Origin: Bacteroidota bacterium
Lineage (GTDB): Bacteria > Bacteroidota > Bacteroidia > J057 > JADKCL01
Reading direction: 5' to 3'
Assembly: GCA_031424495.1 (NCBI GenBank)
Contig: JANPHP010000034.1
Span: 28,804 to 92,803 of the forward strand
Length of the DNA stretch: 64,000 bases
Shown piece after piece: positions 4,040-34,327 of this stretch. The position numbers and the translations under genes were made by a program. Every line of letters begins with the position of its first letter. Position 1 is the stretch's first letter. The notes beneath the pieces were generated by a model. The model had not been told where the DNA came from. It worked only from the letters and a program-made list of their open reading frames with translations, and ran no database searches.

Positions 4040-4570
4040 TTATGAAAAAGCTGAAGCTTTTGATTTCTCTTTTTTCCAAAGGGGCACTGTGGAGCAAGGC
4101 TCGCCATACATGAGTTTGTCGGCGATGGCCCGCAAGCGCACGATGAAGTCTACAAATGTGGCTTGGGGAATCTCGATATCGCCGCAACCTTTCACGACGA
4201 TTTTTTTACCCTCGAGTTGCTGATAGTCGATGCGGTCCAGTGCTTTGTGCCAGATGGCGATTTCCAAATCTTCACGGCTACCAAATACGATGGTGCTGGC
4301 AAAAGGTTGGAGTTGGATGGCGAGCAGCATGTAGGCCCAGCCGGGAATGATGGCATCGGCGCTGCAGTGCAGGTGCACATGCTGCCCCTGGTACTGCGCC
4401 CAGTCGACCGACTCGAGCCAGCCTCGGTAGTCGCCCTCCTTCAAGATCATGCACATAAACAGGCGCTCTGCGATGTCGATCCCGACACGGGGCGCGGGGT
4501 CATGGTAGTCTGCGAGGTCAAAGGAGACGAGCGGACTCAGGGCGACTTTGTTGACGATGTCTTTTTCCAT
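4040..4570 (-). CDS. Conserved hypothetical protein
   Basis: 176-aa ORF with coding-like composition and no antisense competitor of equal quality. Function not recognisable. Confidence 0.5.
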   Translation of the reverse strand: MEKDIVNKVALSPLVSFDLADYHDPAPRVGIDIAERLFMCMILKEGDYRGWLESVDWAQYQGQHVHLHCSADAIIPGWAYMLLAIQLQPFASTIVFGSREDLEIAIWHKALDRIDYQQLEGKKIVVKGCGDIEIPQATFVDFIVRLRAIADKLMYGEPCSTVPLWKKEKSKASAFS

Positions 4571-14162: not shown

Positions 14163-14250
14163 GGAGAGGTGTCCGAGTGGTTGAAGGAGCACGCCTGGAA
14201 AGTGTGTGTATCTCAAAAGGGTACCGAGGGTTCGAATCCCTCTCTCTCCA
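14163..14250 (+). tRNA. tRNA-Ser (anticodon GGA), class II with long variable arm
   Basis: GGAGAGG acceptor, D-loop AGTGGTTGAA, anticodon loop CTGGAAA, 19-nt variable arm, T-loop TTCGAAT, 3' TCTCTCC+A. Hand-folded. Confidence 0.85.
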
Positions 14251-28131: not shown

Positions 28132-28578
28132 TCAGTTGATGCTGATCTCGCGGGTTGGCTTGTCGAGCGCTTCTTCGCGCTTGGGCAAGCTCAGGTGCAA
28201 GACGCCATTCTCATATTTGGCATCGATTTTTTCTTGGTCGATGGTCTTCGGCAATTGGAAGCTGCGCTCAAATGCGTTGTAGGAGTATTCGCGGCGCAGG
28301 TACTTGTCTTCGACTTCTTCGCTGGACTTGATTTTCTCGACTTTGATGGTCAAAACGTCTTTTTCCAAGGAGAGTTTGAAGTCAGACTTGTCCAAGCCTG
28401 GGGCAGCGACTTCGATGCGGTAACCTTCGGCTGTTTCAGCGACATTCACTGCAGGCACGGTGCCATTGTGAACCCTGTCCTGAAAAGCTGGGCGCAAAAA
28501 GTCGTTTGCGAAAAAGCTGTCGAAAAATCCGCCGTTTTGGCGCTTACGATTCACGTTAGGAACATTTACGAGTGTCAT
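28132..28578 (-). CDS. Hsp20/alpha-crystallin small heat-shock protein
   Basis: ACD core P-VNV-E----Y-I-V--PG----D--L-----VL-I...A-YENGVL-L-LPK. Confidence 0.85.
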   Translation of the reverse strand: MTLVNVPNVNRKRQNGGFFDSFFANDFLRPAFQDRVHNGTVPAVNVAETAEGYRIEVAAPGLDKSDFKLSLEKDVLTIKVEKIKSSEEVEDKYLRREYSYNAFERSFQLPKTIDQEKIDAKYENGVLHLSLPKREEALDKPTREISIN

Positions 28579-28640
28579 TGTCTTCTTATTTTTAAGTGAT
28601 ACTGATTTTAAATAGACAATGACCTCCTTTCAAGTCTTGT

Positions 28641-28745
28641 GCCAATGGGTTTTGGCATGGGATTTCTGCCATTTTGGCATTTATTTATTTTGGTTCACTG
28701 CCATTTTGTCGGTTTTTGTGTTTTGGAGCAGTGCCATTTTGTCAT
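28641..28745. promoter_or_regulatory. Phased TGCCATTTTG(G/T)C direct repeats upstream of hsp20
   Basis: Three copies at 28667, 28699, 28732 (32-33 bp phasing). The first is a perfect palindrome TGCCA-ttt-TGGCA. A fourth degenerate copy is at 28641. Confidence 0.4.
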
Positions 28746-28859
28746 CTACCTAGCTTAGGAACGGATATCCCGCGCCAATTGTAGCGTCATGCCAGTTTTC
28801 GAAGTCTGCAAATTCTTCAGCCGTTCAGGGAAAAACTCCCCAAAAGCATCCTCAATCGA

Positions 28860-30804
28860 GTAGGAGAAAATAGAGACAGTTATTAGGCTGCTTCTATTTT
28901 CGTCCTCTCACACCACCGTGCGTACGGTTCCGTACACGGCGGTTCATCGGGCGTTTCCTCTTTGTTGGGTAAGGCTGCGATATCCTAGCTGCCCGAAGTA
29001 ATTGGTGTTGAGCGTGGTTTGCAGGATGGGTGAGGCTGCGATTCGCCACCCTCCCTTCCTCGTGCACGCCCATTGGAAGGCTTTGTCGGCGCTGACCCCC
29101 AGCTTTCTCAGCTCCTTGATTCTTGTGCGGACGCGTTTCCAGTCATGCCAGTGACAGTATCGCACGCGGCGGCGTGTCCATTCATCGATGGCCTCAAGTT
29201 TCTTGCGACCGTCGGCCAGCTTGAAGTAATTCATCCAGCCACCTGTCAGGTCGTTCAGCTTCTTGATCCGCGTGTGCATGGCATAAGGGCGTGTCTTGCG
29301 GGTGATCTCACGGATTTTGGCCTTCAGTTTCAGATAGCTTTTCTCCGCGATCCGCAGTGCCCATCTGCCTGTCGTCTTGTAGAAGCTGTGTCCAAGAACC
29401 GTGAACTTGGAGGGACGCCTGACGGCGCTCTTCTCCTTGTTCACTTTCAGTTTCAGTCGCTTCTCGATGAACATTGTCACACTCTCCAGAACACGCTTGC
29501 CCGCCTTCTCACTACCCACATAGATGCTGCAATCGTCGGCATAACGCACAAATCTAAGGTTCCTTGCCTCCAGTTCCTTGTCCAGCTTGTCGAGCAGGAT
29601 GTTCGACAACAGCGGGCTGAGCGGGCCACCTTGTGGCACACCTTCGTCGCTTTCAGTGAACACACCCCCGACCATCACGCCAGATTCAACGATGGCTCGG
29701 ATGAGTTTCAACACAAGCTTGTCCTCGATTCGCTGGCTCAGCAGGTTCAGCAAGTAGTCGTGGTTCACACGGTCGAAGAACTTCTCCATGTCCATGTCCA
29801 CCACCCAAGTGAAGCCTTCATTGACAAAGCTCGTCGCGACTGCAAGTGCTTGGTGTTGGTTGCGACCTGCCCGAAACCCGAAGCTATGGTCGGAAAATTC
29901 GGGCTCATACATCGGCGAGAGCACCTGATGGATGGCCTGCTGAATCATCCGATCCATTACCGTAGGGATTCCAAGAAGCCTCCCCCCCCCACTTTCCTTG
30001 CGGATTTCAACCCGCCTTACCGCTTGGGGCTTGTACTTTCCCTGCTTGATGCGCTCCCTGATATCGTGCCAGTGGACTTTACAGTAATCCAGCAGTTCGC
30101 TCGCCTTCATTCCGTCAACACCCGCAGCTCCGTCGTTTTTCACGACCCGCCGCAGGGCCTCGCCCATGTTCTCGCGTTCAAGTATCTTGTCAATCAAGTT
30201 CATGTAAACCTCCCAATACTTTGATTCTTGCGCCTCCTGTTCCTTTTCGCAAGCACGGGCTAAGCCCTCTTGGGTACTCCTCGGGTTCCACCCTACTCCT
30301 CCCCAAAAGCTCCTTCCTCAGATGGAAGGCTTGGCTGCCATCGGCCCCATGCCCAGATTCCAGAATGATCTGCGCTCCCGATGTTCGGCCCTTCACGGTT
30401 GCGATCTCTCCGTCCCTCACGGTTTACATCCCGCGGACGGCTCTTTTCCCCCGCTAATATGGCCTCGGCTGACTTCTGGGTACTCAGCGCAACGTCACCG
30501 CCACGGTTGCCCTCAACGAGCTTGTCCCCAGATCTCCCCAGGTAAGAACGGTCACTTTCCCTTCATGTGGCCTCCGCATCTACAACACAACGGTTCGGAT
30601 AGTATCGGACTTCGGCTTGTTTTGCAGCCTCGTCCACTGTTGCACTGCCTCCTATGCGGTTCCTGTTCGTAGGCCCGAAGGTTTGCCGCCAGCTTCCTTC
30701 AGATTCCGCCTCGCGGCGGACACCCTTGCTATTGGCTAATGCTTCCCACTATCAGGGCGCATTCGGGACTTTCACCCTACAGTTACCGCCCATGCTGGGC
30801 GCAC
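28860..30804 (-). mobile_element. Bacterial class C (IIC) group II intron, ~1.95 kb
   Basis: 5' GUGCG at 30804-30800 lies 9 nt after the aspS terminator hairpin/U-run. RT/maturase ORF inside domain IV. Domain V-like 14-bp helix with 2-nt bulge and CGC triad at 28913-28945 overlaps the ORF stop. Domain VI-like hairpin and terminal AC end at ~28860. Confidence 0.75.
28944..30203 (-). CDS. Group II intron reverse transcriptase/maturase (no endonuclease domain)
   Basis: RT motifs 0-7 including RYADDCSIY (YADD). Maturase X domain follows. No HNH/Zn-finger En domain. 419 aa is typical of IIC intron-encoded proteins. Confidence 0.9.
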   Translation of the reverse strand: MNLIDKILERENMGEALRRVVKNDGAAGVDGMKASELLDYCKVHWHDIRERIKQGKYKPQAVRRVEIRKESGGGRLLGIPTVMDRMIQQAIHQVLSPMYEPEFSDHSFGFRAGRNQHQALAVATSFVNEGFTWVVDMDMEKFFDRVNHDYLLNLLSQRIEDKLVLKLIRAIVESGVMVGGVFTESDEGVPQGGPLSPLLSNILLDKLDKELEARNLRFVRYADDCSIYVGSEKAGKRVLESVTMFIEKRLKLKVNKEKSAVRRPSKFTVLGHSFYKTTGRWALRIAEKSYLKLKAKIREITRKTRPYAMHTRIKKLNDLTGGWMNYFKLADGRKKLEAIDEWTRRRVRYCHWHDWKRVRTRIKELRKLGVSADKAFQWACTRKGGWRIAASPILQTTLNTNYFGQLGYRSLTQQRGNAR

Positions 30805-30812
30805 AAACAAAA

Positions 30813-30845
30813 AGCACAGCCCGGTGATCCCGAGGCTGTGCTTTT
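30813..30845 (-). terminator. aspS rho-independent terminator (intron insertion target)
   Basis: agcacagcc-tcgggatcaccgg-gctgtgct hairpin + TTTTTGTTT on the minus strand, immediately followed by the intron 5' end. Confidence 0.75.
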
Positions 30846-30869
30846 CCATTTCTATGCTCAAAAATCAAC

Positions 30870-32633
30870 TCACCCCGGCAGCAAATCCTCCCGCACACCG
30901 ATGAACAGCGCGTCCAAGGCTTCGGTCTCGATCACGCTTGGGCTGTCGATCATCATGTCGCGGCCCATGTTGTTTTTGGGGAATGCAATGTAGTCGCGGA
31001 TCGAGTCGTCGCCGCCAAACATGGCGCTCAGGCGGTCGAAGCCAAAGGCGATGCCGCCGTGGGGCGGTGCACCATATTCAAAAGCGCCCATCAAAAAGCC
31101 GAATTGCGCCTGCGCGGCCTCGGGCGTGAAGCCCAGAATCTCAAACATGCGCTGCTGCAAGCTGCGGTCGTGGATCCTGATCGATCCACCGCCAAGTTCG
31201 ACGCCGTTCATCGTGAGGTCGTAGGCGTTTGCGAGCACGCTGCCGAGATTTTCACCTTTGATGAATTGCTCAAACTGCTCGGGCTTGGGCGAGGTGAAGG
31301 GGTGGTGCATCGCGAAGAATCGTTGGCTGTCCTCGTCCCACTCGAGGAGCGGGAAGTCGATGACCCACAGCGGTTGGAAAGTGTCCTTGGGACGCAAGCC
31401 CAGGCGGTTGGCGAGCTCGATGCGCAGGCTGCCGAGCTGCTTGCGGGTCTTCTCGTCCTTGCCGCAGAGCAGCAACAACAGGTCGCCCGGTTTGGCTTCC
31501 ATGCGGGTCGCCCAGGCCTTGAGGTCGCCTTCGTCATAAAATTTATCGACCGACGATTTCACCGAACCGTCGGCATTTACGCGGGCATAGATGAGGCCCT
31601 TTGCGCCGATCTGCGGAGCCTTCACCCAGTCGGTGAGGCCGTCGAGGTCCTTGCGCGTGTACTCGGCCGCGCCGGGTACGCAGATGCCCGCGACCAATTC
31701 GCTGTCGTTGAAGACGGCGAAGTCCTTGTGTTTGGCGATGTCGCTCAGGTCGCGGATCTCCATGCCAAACCGGATGTCGGGCTTGTCGCTGCCAAAGCGA
31801 TGCATCGCCTCGGCGTAGGTCATGTGGGGGATCTCGTCGAATTCCAAGCCTTTCAAGGTCTTGAACAAGTGGCGGAAAAGTCCCTCAAAAGTCTTCAAGA
31901 TATCGCTCTGCTCCACAAAAGCCATTTCGCAGTCGATCTGCGTGAACTCCGGCTGCCGGTCGGCGCGCAAATCCTCGTCCCTGAAGCAGCGCACGATCTG
32001 GAAATAGCGGTCATAGCCGCTCACCATCAAGATCTGCTTGAAGGTCTGCGGCGACTGCGGCAGGGCGTAAAACTGCCCGGGGTTCATGCGCGATGGCACG
32101 ATGAAGTCGCGCGCGCCCTCGGGCGTGCTCTTGATCATATAAGGTGTCTCGATTTCCAGGAAGTTGAGGCTGTCGAGGTATTTGCGCGTCTCGATGCCGA
32201 GGCGGTGGCGCAATTGGATGTTGCGTTGGAGCGGACCGCGACGCAAGTCGAGGTAGCGGTACTTCATCCGCAGCTGATCTTGGCCGTCGGTTTCCTCCTC
32301 GATGAGGAATGGCGGCACCTTGGATTCATTCAGGACGGCGATCGAGGTCGGGTTGATCTCGATGTCGCCGGTGCTCATCTTCGGATTTTTGCTCGTGCGC
32401 TCGGTCACGATGCCCGTGACCTTCACGACAAATTCGCGGCCGAGAGACTTGGCGATCTCGTAGAGGTCGGCTTTGTCAGAATCTACATTCACCTGCGTGA
32501 TGCCATAACGGTCACGGATATCGACAAAATTGAAGTGACCATGGTCGCGCGCCTTCTGGACCCAGCCAGCAATCGTGACTTCTAGACCGACATGTTCAAT
32601 GCGGAGTTCGCCGCAGGTGTGTGTACGATGCAT
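30870..32633 (-). CDS. aspS: Aspartate--tRNA ligase
   Basis: N-terminal OB-fold ([25 protein letters not shown]), class II motifs ([18 protein letters not shown]; GGGSIRIHD...Q). ATG at 32633. Confidence 0.9.
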
Positions 32634-32814: not shown

Positions 32815-33042
32815 TTACTCAAACCGAAACAACTCCCAAAGTTCGACCCCCAAAGTGTCAGCCAATCGCTCAGCCGTACTAATCGTAGTATTGATCTTGC
32901 CAGTCTCGATGCGGGCGATCTGTGTGTATTCGATCTCGGCCATACCCGCCAAGGTCTCGATGCTGATCCCCTTCGACAAACGAATGGCCCTCAACTTGGC
33001 CCCAAATTTTTGCAACAATTCTGGATTTCTCACGCGTCCCAT
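32815..33042 (-). CDS. HTH XRE-family transcriptional regulator
   Basis: LRAIRLSKGISIETLAGMAEIEYTQIARIETGKINTTISTAERLADTLGV: canonical Cro/C1-type HTH. Confidence 0.7.
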   Translation of the reverse strand: MGRVRNPELLQKFGAKLRAIRLSKGISIETLAGMAEIEYTQIARIETGKINTTISTAERLADTLGVELWELFRFE

Positions 33043-33107
33043 GTTTGCAAGTATGCCATACCTTGTTACATTTGTTATGGCATAAAACACATGGTCGAGA
33101 TACAATT

Positions 33108-33527: not shown

Positions 33528-33767
33528 ATGCCCACTTTAAAATTACTCGATGGTGTCAAGGTTGAGATGTTCCCTAGGGATCATTTCCCTCCGCATGTTC
33601 ATGTTTCATATGGAGAATATGAAGAACTGATCGAAATAGAAACGCTTGCCACTTATTCAGGACGCAAACTCCTTCCAAGTCGCAAACGTAAAATCGTAGT
33701 AGAATGGATGGCAGAGAACCAAGCATTCCTTTTCGATTGGTGGAATACTTTGCAAAATAGTAGATAG
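33528..33767 (+). CDS. DUF4160-family protein
   Basis: 79 aa with the family hallmark MFPRDHFPPHVHV. Confidence 0.7.
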   Translation: MPTLKLLDGVKVEMFPRDHFPPHVHVSYGEYEELIEIETLATYSGRKLLPSRKRKIVVEWMAENQAFLFDWWNTLQNSR

Positions 33768-33796
33768 ATGACGGTGAACTTTTTTAAAGAATCGCA

Positions 33797-34327
33797 ATGA
33801 AAGCAAAAGCATTTCGCACGATTCCTCGGATTCTTCGGATCAACGCTCGTAAGGGATTTGTAATCTCTTGCCTGTTTAGCAATGGGGAAAATCGAATCAT
33901 AGACTTTGAAAACCTGTTTAGAAATGTCTTCAAAGTGCAGCCGGGTGATTCCGACTATGTATTACTTCAAGATGAAAAGGCCTTTGCCGAAGTCAAGGTT
34001 GAAGAAAAAAATCTTCGCTGGTCGAACATAGGCTTTCATGGAAAGGATGAACTTGGAAATCCCATTTTCCTACCTTATGAATTGGATCCAATCGTCCTGT
34101 ACCAAAACAGTAAGCCCGACACGAGTATGGATATCGATATCGCTCAGATGATCCGTTCACTACGTACCGCGCAAGGCATGACGCAAACCGAGCTTGCACA
34201 AAAGAGCGGGACCACAAAGCAGTACATCTCCCGCCTCGAAAACAGCCATGCCGATATCGAGCTGATGACCCTGAAACGCATCGTAGAAGGCGGCCTAGGT
34301 CGACATCTGGATATCAGTATCAAGTAA
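33797..34327 (+). CDS. DUF2442-like domain fused to C-terminal HTH XRE domain
   Basis: N-terminal ~110 aa DUF2442-like (usual partner of DUF4160). C-terminal IRSLRTAQGMTQTELAQKSGTTKQYISRLENSHADIELMTLKRI is a Cro/C1 HTH. Confidence 0.6.
   Translation: MKAKAFRTIPRILRINARKGFVISCLFSNGENRIIDFENLFRNVFKVQPGDSDYVLLQDEKAFAEVKVEEKNLRWSNIGFHGKDELGNPIFLPYELDPIVLYQNSKPDTSMDIDIAQMIRSLRTAQGMTQTELAQKSGTTKQYISRLENSHADIELMTLKRIVEGGLGRHLDISIK

What the first reader, a model, noticed from the sequence alone, without database searches (positions are those of the whole stretch)
28860..30804. Class C group II intron inserted 9 nt downstream of the aspS terminator hairpin
On the minus strand the aspS stop (30870) is followed by a canonical terminator hairpin (30813-30845) and a U-run. 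The consensus group II 5' end GUGCG (30804-30800) and a domain-I-like GC-rich structured region follow directly. An En-minus RT/maturase of 419 aa (YADD motif) sits in domain IV. At 28913-28945 there is a 14-bp helix with a 2-nt bulge whose basal catalytic triad reads CGC rather than AGC. That is a domain-V hallmark of bacterial class C introns, which are known to target rho-independent terminators. A domain-VI-like hairpin and terminal AC place the 3' end near 28860, giving ~1.95 kb, the expected IIC size. The 3' flank is a repeat-bearing hsp20 upstream region, so intron read-through could affect hsp20 transcription.
Basis: partly seen in the sequence, partly recalled or inferred. Interest (0 to 1): 0.6.

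Follow-up and report, generated by a model that had tools for sequence, protein, structure and literature searches.

The report
Class C group II intron after terminator
This is an ordinary, apparently intact bacterial class C (IIC) group II intron, a self-splicing mobile element carrying its own reverse transcriptase, parked harmlessly just behind the transcription terminator of the aspS gene in a Bacteroidota genome.

Summary
A 1950-nt group II intron lies on the minus strand at 30804-28855. Rfam models hit domain I (156 bits), domains II/III (54 bits) and domains V/VI (44 bits).

The 419-aa reverse transcriptase/maturase has no endonuclease domain. Its closest solved structure is the GsI-IIC RT (E 1e-138).

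Every IIC hallmark I could test is present:
- a CGC triad and a short distal stem in domain V;
- the 11-nt AGGAA bulge;
- a 3-bp EBS1-IBS1 pairing;
- insertion 9 nt after the GC-rich core of a terminator hairpin.

One correction: the 3' end is 28855 (…CUCGAU), not 28860.

Five closely related copies (84-98% identical) sit at five other terminators. Their homology to the window stops at or near these ends, exactly so in four of the five. The EBS1 triplet covaries with the last three exon bases in 57 of 60 related sites.

The nearest intron-less relative (AspS 94% identical) keeps the same terminator unoccupied.

This is a new member of a well-known kind, and interest is low. The suggested effect on hsp20 is untested and looks unlikely.

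The parts
30870..32633 (-). aspS (aspartate-tRNA ligase) CDS. This is the host gene whose terminator is the insertion target.
   Evidence: Pfam tRNA-synt_2, tRNA_anti-codon and GAD. Homologues are named aspartate--tRNA ligase.
30809..30846 (-). Intrinsic terminator hairpin of aspS. GC-rich core at 30841-30814, one bulged U, 5-nt loop.
   Evidence: RNAfold gives -27 kcal/mol, in the top 0.17% of 45-nt windows of this window. The stem is conserved in the intron-less relative L169. The simple pattern scan picked up only its inner 5 bp.
30805..30813 (-). U-run UUUUUGUUU, the 3' end of the 5' exon. IBS1 is UUU at 30807-30805.
   Evidence: Read directly from the sequence. EBS1/IBS1 covariation.
28855..30804 (-). 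Complete group IIC intron, 1950 nt, GUGCG…CUCGAU.
   Evidence: Rfam hits. blastn homology to four copies at other sites spans intron nt 1-1950 exactly. The L001 copy matches 30815-28855, and the extra 11 nt are a similar U-run.
30537..30799 (-). Domain I, closed by helix CCCAG/CUGGG.
   Evidence: RF02001 hit at 30720-30547, 156 bits. MFE fold. Alignment with 59 relatives.
30695..30705 (-). 11-nt bulge AAUCUGAAGGA carrying the IIC-specific AGGAA (epsilon' region).
   Evidence: AAUCUGAAGGA is kept in nearly all of the 60 aligned introns that the printed alignment shows; the output was cut, and at least four rows differ by one to a few bases. The motif is described as IIC-specific in PMC1702495.
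30660..30670 (-). 11-nt internal (coordination) loop ACGAACAGGAA. The candidate EBS3 is A30667.
   Evidence: MFE fold. Position 30667 is the one hypervariable base in this loop. It pairs with the first 3' exon base in 5 of 6 close copies. The family-wide signal is mixed.
30621..30623 (-). EBS1 (AAA), in the terminal loop GCAAAACA of a domain ID hairpin.
   Evidence: It pairs with exon bases -1 to -3. All three pairs form in 57 of 60 sites and in 23 of 26 distinct combinations, against a shuffle mean of 3.6 and a maximum of 10. There is a compensatory A-to-U change in L001.
30475..30532 (-). Domain II (UCUGGG…CCCAGA).
   Evidence: RF01998 hit. MFE fold.
30387..30464 (-). Domain III (GGCC…GGCC), with a 52-nt insertion relative to the Rfam model.
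   Evidence: RF01998 alignment. MFE fold.
28946..30382 (-). Domain IV, with closing helix AUCGGG (30382-30377) / CCCGAU (28951-28946). It contains the ORF.
   Evidence: MFE fold of a mini-construct.
28944..30203 (-). Intron-encoded RT/maturase, 419 aa, with YADD and no D/En domain. GGGAGG lies 7 nt upstream of the ATG.
   Evidence: Pfam RVT_1 and GIIM. PDB best hit is GsI-IIC RT at 1e-138. Against copy L001 there are 13 synonymous and 6 non-synonymous codon differences.
28912..28943 (-). Domain V. CGC triad at 28941-28939, AC bulge at 28923-28922, 3-bp distal stem and GAAC loop.
   Evidence: RF00029 alignment. MFE fold. Compensatory pair changes appear across 27 distinct relatives, and CGC is present in 25 of the 27.
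28857..28910 (-). Domain VI. Bulged branch-point A at 28861, 3-4 bp basal helix, 6-nt spacer to the 3' end.
   Evidence: RF00029 alignment. MFE fold. The geometry matches the majority of IIC introns described in PMC4748821.
28854..28854 (-). First base of the 3' exon (U), the candidate IBS3.
   Evidence: Homology breakpoints.
28132..28578 (-). hsp20, the downstream neighbour. It is not part of the element. Its start is 276 nt past the intron.
   Evidence: Pfam HSP20. Synteny with L167 and L169.

Best explanation
This is a full-length, probably still active bacterial class C (group IIC) intron retroelement. It is inserted in the sense orientation 9 nt downstream of the aspS terminator hairpin.

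Shown here by computation:
- the ribozyme domains I-VI and the endonuclease-less RT/maturase in domain IV;
- the exact ends, 30804 and 28855;
- a 3-bp EBS1 (AAA, 30623-30621) complementary to the last three exon bases (UUU);
- sibling copies at other terminators;
- absence of the intron from the same terminator in the nearest relative.

Inferred from what is established for IIC introns (PMC1702495, PMC4424553):
- The element is transcribed only by read-through of the aspS terminator.
- The RT is translated and binds its own RNA as a maturase.
- The intron splices out, by lariat formation or hydrolysis, and joins two non-coding exons, so the host pays no cost.
- The RNP then reverse-splices into DNA at other terminator stem-loop motifs. 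It recognises them through the hairpin plus the 3-bp IBS1 and the 1-bp IBS3.
- Because the protein has no endonuclease, cDNA synthesis is primed by nascent strands at replication forks.
For: - Rfam hits at gathering threshold for DI, DII/III and DV/VI.
- The RT is closest to the GsI-IIC RT (1e-138, residues 1-414) and to other group II intron RTs that I recognise as IIC. It hits RVT_1 and GIIM only.
- CGC triad, 3-bp DV distal stem, AGGAA bulge and DVI with a 6-nt spacer. These match the published IIC definition.
- Copies at other sites: L001 is 98% identical, L171, L172 and L173 are 87%, and L174 is 84%. Four of them match intron nt 1-1950 exactly, and all five follow a terminator hairpin.
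- EBS1/IBS1: all 3 bp form in 57 of 60 related sites, and 23 of 26 distinct combinations pair, against a shuffle mean of 3.6 and a maximum of 10 in 5000 shuffles.
- Among 58 related insertion sites, 95% have an upstream MFE below the 5th percentile of control windows (Mann-Whitney p = 1.5e-35).
- The orthologous terminator is unoccupied in L169, whose AspS is 94% identical.
- The ORF is intact and shows 13 synonymous against 6 non-synonymous codon differences from L001.
Against: - No experimental evidence of splicing or mobility exists for this copy.
- No exact empty site was found. In L169 the sequence 3' of the terminator is not significantly similar to the window's 3' exon (p about 0.1), because a hipBA module occupies that interval.
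- The EBS3 assignment is only suggestive. Family-wide, several sites mispair at that column.
- One close copy, L172, has a mismatch at both IBS1 position -3 and IBS3.
- I could not show whether L001 comes from the same genome as the window, so multi-copy status within this genome is inferred only from contigs that break inside the intron.
Confidence: 0.93

Rival explanations
1. The element is a genuine IIC intron but an immobile fossil. It is a dead copy that no longer splices or moves and is simply carried along in the aspS-hsp20 spacer.
For: There are no functional data. IIC introns lie outside genes, so there is little selection for splicing (PMC1702495). DIII carries a 52-nt insertion relative to the Rfam model. 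There are six non-synonymous differences from L001.
Against: The ORF is intact with YADD, and all ribozyme core motifs are present. Synonymous differences outnumber non-synonymous ones, 13 to 6. Copies 84-98% identical sit at five other terminators, and in most of them EBS1 matches the local IBS1. The intron is absent from the closest relative, which implies a recent gain.
Confidence: 0.2
2. It is an endonuclease-less group II intron of another bacterial class (IIB-like class D, E or F, such as RmInt1-type), and lies next to a terminator only by coincidence.
For: 419-aa RTs without an En domain also occur in classes D, E and F (PMC4424553).
Against: The PDB ranking puts IIC RTs about 70-100 orders of magnitude ahead of the IIA and IIB RTs. 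The triad is CGC, not AGC. EBS1 is 3 bp with no conserved upstream pairing. The AGGAA bulge is present. Relatives are almost uniformly next to terminators.
Confidence: 0.02
3. One reading: transcription reading through the intron, or an outward promoter in it, materially changes hsp20 expression.
For: The intron is co-oriented with hsp20. No terminator-like site was found on the minus strand between 28854 and 28579. Outward promoters are reported for IIC-attC introns (a reference cited in PMC4424553).
Against: The hsp20 upstream repeats (28666-28750) and the promoter-like elements (28644-28605) all lie 100-250 nt downstream of the intron. The last roughly 90 nt before hsp20 (28665-28579) align with intron-less L169, and similar repeat motifs occur upstream of its hsp20. 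In relatives, hsp20 is separated from aspS by a whole hipBA module and so evidently has its own promoter. The intron sits behind a strong terminator.
Confidence: 0.08

Closest known systems
GsI-IIC intron of Geobacillus stearothermophilus (RT structure PDB 6AR1)
   Same: The RT aligns over its full length (residues 1-414 to 1-413) at E 1e-138, with the same RT-finger/palm plus X/thumb architecture and no En domain. Both are class C.
   Different: The hosts differ: Bacteroidota here, Bacillota there. RTs of Bacillota relatives are only 45-59% identical. The 5' ribozyme segment is about 45 nt longer here, 601 nt against about 556 nt before the ORF.
B.h.I1 of Bacillus halodurans, the experimentally characterised IIC intron (PMC1702495)
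   Same: All the features that paper lists for IIC are present here: a CGC triad; a DV distal stem 2 bp shorter; the 11-nt AGGAA bulge; a 3-4 bp EBS1-IBS1; a terminator stem-loop where IBS2 would be; and a splice site 3-11 nt after the stem-loop.
   Different: No splicing data exist for this copy, and its EBS1 and IBS1 sequences differ.
O.i.I1 of Oceanobacillus iheyensis, the crystallised IIC ribozyme
   Same: From my own recollection of the O.i.I1 sequence, and not tested here, long stretches of DI, J2/3, DIII and DV look nearly identical, for example AAUCUGAAGGAAG and AACCGCCGU…ACGGUGGUG. The DVI geometry, with a 3-bp basal helix and a 6-nt spacer, matches what PMC4748821 describes.
   Different: From my recollection, O.i.I1 has no ORF; per PMC4748821 its crystal structure lacks domain VI. 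This intron keeps a full RT ORF.
IIC-attC introns (e.g. S.ma.I2)
   Same: Same class C RT and IIC ribozyme type (PMC4424553).
   Different: Those introns insert at integron attC sites. This copy and its five close siblings all follow hairpins with a U-rich tail, that is, terminator motifs.

Membership tests
Group IIC / bacterial class C group II intron | Group II ribozyme core (domains I-VI, conserved DV) detectable by covariance models | tested here: met
   RF02001 at 156 bits, RF01998 at 54 bits and RF00029 at 44 bits, all above gathering score.
Group IIC / bacterial class C group II intron | DV basal stem carries CGC instead of the AGC triad (PMC1702495) | tested here: met
   C28941 G28940 C28939, with G28940 paired to U28915. 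CGC is present in 25 of 27 distinct relatives.
Group IIC / bacterial class C group II intron | DV distal stem 2 bp shorter than in IIA and IIB | tested here: met
   The distal stem is 3 bp (ACG/CGU) capped by GAAC. The Rfam alignment shows a 4-nt deletion relative to the general DV model.
Group IIC / bacterial class C group II intron | 11-nt bulge with conserved AGGAA in the epsilon' region | tested here: met
   AAUCUGAAGGA at 30705-30695, kept in nearly all of the aligned introns that the cut output shows; at least four rows differ by one to a few bases.
Group IIC / bacterial class C group II intron | EBS1-IBS1 of only 3-4 bp | tested here: met
   There are 3 bp: AAA at 30623-30621 with UUU at 30807-30805. 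Covariation holds in 57 of 60 sites and in 23 of 26 distinct combinations, against a shuffle maximum of 10. Compensatory changes occur among near-identical copies.
Group IIC / bacterial class C group II intron | No EBS2-IBS2 pairing. A terminator stem-loop occupies the IBS2 position. | tested here: inconclusive
   The evidence is indirect. Six copies have near-identical DI, yet exon positions -4 to -12 differ in sequence and belong to the U-run and stem. DI is only 263 nt. I made no formal search for an EBS2 loop.
Group IIC / bacterial class C group II intron | Insertion a few nt (3-11) downstream of an intrinsic terminator stem-loop | tested here: met
   The insertion is 9 nt after the GC-rich core of the hairpin, which folds at -27 kcal/mol. 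The same holds for the 5 close copies and for 95% of 58 related sites.
Group IIC / bacterial class C group II intron | IEP of class C: RT plus X/maturase, no D/En domain | tested here: met
   Only RVT_1 and GIIM are found, in 419 aa. The best PDB matches are GsI-IIC RT and three further group II intron RTs that I recognise as IIC, far ahead of the IIA and IIB RTs. No curated IEP phylogeny was run.
Group IIC / bacterial class C group II intron | EBS3-IBS3 single pair, as in IIB introns | tested here: inconclusive
   A30667 can pair with U28854. Among the six close copies, 5 pair, including a G-C in L001. Family-wide, several sites mispair at this column.
Group IIC / bacterial class C group II intron | DVI with a bulged A, a 3-bp (majority) basal helix and a 6-7 nt spacer to the 3' splice site (PMC4748821) | tested here: met
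   A28861 is bulged. The basal helix is 28909-28907 paired with 28860-28858, plus a possible U-G pair. The spacer CUCGAU is 6 nt.
Group IIC / bacterial class C group II intron | Self-splicing and retromobility | not testable with these tools
   Only indirect evidence is available: an intact ORF, sibling copies at other terminators, and absence from the nearest relative.
IIC-attC subclass | Insertion at integron attC sites | tested here: not met
   The target is the aspS terminator with a U-run, and the close copies likewise follow hairpins with U-rich tails. I did not search the window for an integron integrase.
IIB-like En-minus classes (D/E/F) | AGC triad, roughly 6-bp EBS1 plus EBS2, and a specific homing site | tested here: not met
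   The triad is CGC and EBS1 is 3 bp. The six copies sit at six unrelated loci that share only the terminator motif.

The most novel reading that the evidence does not exclude
This reading has two parts.

1. The aspS-hsp20 spacer in this Bacteroidota lineage may be a recurrent landing pad for selfish elements. It holds a IIC intron here and a hipBA toxin-antitoxin module in relatives whose AspS is 94% and 83% identical.
2. This young intron subfamily may retarget quickly by point changes in its two specificity positions. Two copies only 1.9% divergent differ at both EBS1 and the candidate EBS3, and each change exactly matches that copy's own site.

If real, the subfamily would be a natural series for measuring how fast IIC target specificity drifts.
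Probability: 0.3. Interest if true: 0.25.

Novelty: new member of a known kind. Interest (0 to 1): 0.12.

Why it matters
It matters little beyond correct annotation. The 1.95-kb stretch between aspS and hsp20 is one mobile element, not regulatory DNA, and its RT should be labelled as a class C intron maturase.

It does add a well-delimited IIC subfamily, with at least six copies 84-100% identical at six terminators, from Bacteroidota-type metagenomic genomes. Most characterised IIC introns come from Bacillota.

It also gives a clean natural example of EBS1/IBS1 co-variation, and possibly EBS3/IBS3 co-variation. These repeats also explain why assemblies of this organism break at this locus.

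Tried and rejected
1. Exact empty site.
   - Look-ups of the exact AspS and RT proteins found nothing on record.
   - The exact Hsp20 is carried by two Logan contigs, and both end inside the intron, so both are occupied.
   - A metagenome scan with AspS returned only relatives at or below 68% identity, with no hsp20, RT or MlaE nearby.
   - Through the protein database I reached AspS relatives at 83-94% identity: L163-L170.
   - None of them has the intron. L169 keeps the terminator, but its downstream DNA is a hipBA insertion, and its similarity to the window's 3' exon is not significant (p about 0.1, with 39 other L169 windows scoring as high).
   - The result is therefore an unoccupied orthologous terminator, not a base-perfect empty site.
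2. EBS1 register. I first considered AAAC or AAACA pairing with (U)GUUU. The family-wide alignment and the A-to-U change in L001 fix the register as the three bases directly after GC.
3. Both are rejected. Copies whose next base is C or G (L001, L172, and in the wider family L026, L050, L058 and the Ningiella copies) place the end after GAU.
4. Foreign composition. The intron's GC content is 55.5% against 53.2% for the window, so there is no compositional signal.
5. The simple terminator scan found only the inner 5-bp part of the hairpin, because of the bulge. I relied on RNAfold instead.
Full report
**Observation**

On the minus strand, aspS ends at 30870. A strong hairpin follows. Its GC-rich core is at 30841-30814, and RNAfold gives -27 kcal/mol for the 45 nt upstream of 30804. 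Only 0.17% of 45-nt windows in this window fold as well. The run UUUUUGUUU (30813-30805) and then GUGCG (30804-30800) come next.

Rfam covariance models hit three parts of the region at gathering threshold:
- RF02001 group-II-D1D4-3 at 30720-30547 (156 bits);
- RF01998 at 30509-30388 (54 bits);
- the general DV/DVI model RF00029 at 28944-28855 (44 bits).

Between these hits lies a 419-aa ORF (30203-28944). It has RVT_1 and GIIM domains, carries YADD at residue 221, and has no endonuclease domain.

**Boundaries**

The 3' end is 28855, not 28860.

Four lines of evidence fix the ends:
- The Rfam DV/DVI alignment runs to …CCUACUCGAU at 28855.
- L001, a 98%-identical copy on a Bacteroidota MAG contig, lies in an unrelated context. 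Its match to the window runs from 30815 to 28855 and then stops. The 11 extra nt at the 5' side are just a similar U-run.
- Four further copies are 84-87% identical: L171, L172, L173 and L174. Each aligns to intron nt 1-1950 exactly.
- With this end, the bulged A28861 sits above a 3-4 bp basal helix and is followed by a 6-nt spacer to the intron end. That is the geometry reported for most IIC introns (PMC4748821).

**Anatomy**

MFE folds, the Rfam alignments and an alignment of 60 related introns give this layout:

| Part | Coordinates (minus strand) | Notes |
|---|---|---|
| DI | 30799-30537 | closing helix CCCAG/CUGGG |
| AGGAA bulge | 30705-30695 | 11-nt bulge AAUCUGAAGGA |
| Coordination loop | 30670-30660 | 11-nt internal loop |
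| EBS1 | 30623-30621 | in a terminal hairpin loop |
| DII | 30532-30475 | |
| DIII | 30464-30387 | 52-nt insertion relative to the Rfam model |
| DIV | 30382-28946 | closing helix AUCGGG/CCCGAU; the 3' strand overlaps the first base of the stop codon |
| DV | 28943-28912 | |
| DVI | 28910-28857 | |

DV has the triad C28941-G28940-C28939, a 2-nt AC bulge, and only a 3-bp distal stem capped by GAAC. Across 27 distinct DV sequences from relatives, five helix positions show compensatory changes: G-C/A-U, C-G/G-C, A-U/G-C, C-G/U-A and C-G/G-C. CGC is kept in 25 of the 27.

**Class**

The RT's best solved relative is the GsI-IIC RT (E 1e-138, residues 1-414). Next come the 7uim group II intron RT/maturase (2.8e-106) and two chains deposited as "Retron-type reverse transcriptase", 5hhj and 5hhl (about 1e-88). 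From my own recollection, not from the tool output, these three are E. rectale/R. intestinalis IIC RTs. LtrA (IIA) scores 6.6e-36, and the 6me0 maturase RT, which I recall as the IIB T.el4h RT, scores 8.7e-33.

Toor et al. 2006 (PMC1702495) list the features that set IIC ribozymes apart:
- small size;
- CGC in place of AGC;
- a DV distal stem 2 bp shorter;
- an 11-nt bulge with AGGAA;
- an EBS1-IBS1 pairing of only 3-4 bp;
- no EBS2;
- a terminator stem-loop in place of IBS2, with splice sites 3-11 nt after it.

Each of these was checked here. All are met except the absence of EBS2, which I could support only indirectly.

Zimmerly and Semper 2015 (PMC4424553) state that all class C IEPs lack the En domain, and that class C introns insert at terminator motifs rather than homing sites.

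**Target-site behaviour**

A genome scan returned 80 loci with RTs 45-99% identical. I located the 5' ends of the introns by nhmmer.

Of 58 distinct insertion sites, 95% have an upstream 45-nt MFE below the 5th percentile of control windows from the same loci. The mean is -19.1 against -4.9 kcal/mol (Mann-Whitney p = 1.5e-35). The last paired base lies 0-8 nt from the intron, and there are on average 6 T in the last 9 nt.

The three loop bases directly after the closing GC pair with exon positions -1 to -3:
- all three pairs form in 57 of 60 sites;
- 23 of 26 distinct EBS1/IBS1 combinations pair fully;
- in 5000 shuffles, the mean number of fully paired combinations was 3.6 and the maximum 10.

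Among the six close copies the pattern is:

| Copy | IBS1 | EBS1 | First 3' exon base | Base at the 30667 column |
|---|---|---|---|---|
| Window | UUU | AAA | U | A |
| L001 | UUA | UAA | C | G |
| L171 | AUU | AAU | U | A |
| L173 | GUU | AAC | U | A |
| L174 | UUA | UAA | U | G |
| L172 | GUU | AAA (one mismatch) | G | G |

The single hypervariable base of the coordination loop (A30667 in the window) can pair with the first 3' exon base in 5 of these 6 copies. Family-wide, however, several sites mispair at this column. I therefore call it only a candidate EBS3.

**Is it a recent, live element?**

The ORF is intact. Against L001 it shows 13 synonymous and 6 non-synonymous codon differences. 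The intron's GC content (55.5%) matches the host's (53.2%).

The two contigs that carry the identical Hsp20 both end inside the intron. Nearly all contigs carrying close RT homologues are only 1-4 kb long. This is what a repeated element does to short-read assemblies.

AspS relatives at 83-94% identity (L163-L170) have no intron downstream of aspS. L169 is the closest, at 94%. Its aspS region aligns at 88% right through the terminator to the insertion point. It then continues into a hipBA module, followed by hsp20, MlaE and the TPR/OmpA gene. This is the same synteny as in the window, minus the intron.

The sequence 3' of the insertion point is not significantly similar between the two. This is therefore an unoccupied orthologous terminator rather than a base-perfect empty site.

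**Mechanism**

The anatomy, the ends, the pairings, the sibling copies and the absence from relatives are shown here by computation.

The following steps are inferred from the family's established biology:
- expression by terminator read-through;
- maturase-assisted splicing, by lariat or hydrolysis, that joins non-coding exons;
- reverse splicing of the RNP into DNA terminator stem-loops, recognised by shape plus 3+1 base pairs;
- priming of cDNA synthesis from replication-fork strands, because the RT has no endonuclease.

**hsp20**

The regulatory-looking features all lie 100-250 nt downstream of the intron:
- three direct repeats, CTGCCATTTTGkC, spaced 32-33 nt apart at 28666-28750;
- a sigma-54-like element, TGGCAC-N5-TTGA, at 28644-28630;
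- a sigma-70-like match at 28633-28605.

The last roughly 90 nt before hsp20 align with intron-less L169, and similar repeat motifs occur upstream of its hsp20.

**Verdict**

It is a new member of a known kind, and interest is low.

Noticed in passing
window 28630-28750 (minus strand, upstream of hsp20): There are three direct repeats of CTGCCATTTTG(G/T)C spaced 32-33 nt apart, and the copy nearest hsp20 is the palindrome TGCCAAAATGGCA. Next comes CATGCCAAAACCCATTGGCACAAGACTTGAAAGG, which contains a sigma-54-like -24/-12 element, TGGCAC-N5-TTGA. That element and similar repeat motifs are also present upstream of hsp20 in L169. This may be an enhancer-binding-protein/sigma-54 controlled small heat-shock gene. 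The -24/-12 match alone is not significant (43 of 100 shuffles give at least one match).
   Followed up: partly
L169 4311-5828 and L167 6899-8419: In relatives whose AspS is 94% and 83% identical, the aspS-hsp20 interval holds a hipB(HTH_3)-hipA toxin-antitoxin pair instead of the intron. One or two Beta_helix genes also sit between hsp20 and mlaE there and are absent from the window. The spacer seems to be a variable spot.
   Followed up: partly
L169 about 4170-4235: Five tandem copies of the 12-nt unit GAAATTGATGCA lie just upstream of the hipB-like gene. They may be operator repeats.
   Followed up: no
L081 and L082 (Logan SRR20217181 and SRR20217193): Both contigs carrying the identical Hsp20 stop inside the intron RT. 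Most contigs with close RT homologues are only 1-4 kb long. This is consistent with the intron being a multi-copy repeat that breaks assemblies.
   Followed up: partly
L025 (contig binned as Candidatus Bathyarchaeota archaeon): A IIC-type intron (RT 50% identical) sits on a 2.6-kb contig assigned to an archaeal MAG. Its upstream hairpin has no U-run (…GCGAGCCCCGTAGGGGCGAAGCAATCT|GTGCG). IIC introns are reported only from bacteria (PMC4424553), so this is either mis-binning or an unusual host or target.
   Followed up: no
L060, L041, L046 (5' flanks): A few related introns follow hairpins without a U-run, or follow weak hairpins. They could be attC-like or ectopic targets.
   Followed up: no
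L020 (Cytophagales MAG), domain I: This relative carries an insertion of about 42 nt (GGCAAGCTGCAGGCGACTGCGAACCTGCCTGGCCGGCAGGCAGG) just before the AGGAA bulge. None of the other aligned rows visible in the printed alignment has it (the output was cut).
   Followed up: no
window 14163-14250 (+): A tRNA gene with a long variable arm was found (Rfam tRNA, 53 bits).
   Followed up: no
window 32815-33105 (-) and 33528-34327 (+): A small HTH-type ORF lies just upstream of aspS on the same (minus) strand; a weakly similar region, which in L169 carries an HTH gene divergent from aspS, is found there (70% nucleotide identity). Next to it is a pair of small ORFs, 79 aa and 176 aa, and the second ends in an HTH-like segment. 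The pair could be another toxin-antitoxin-like module. This is judged from the ORF list only.
   Followed up: no
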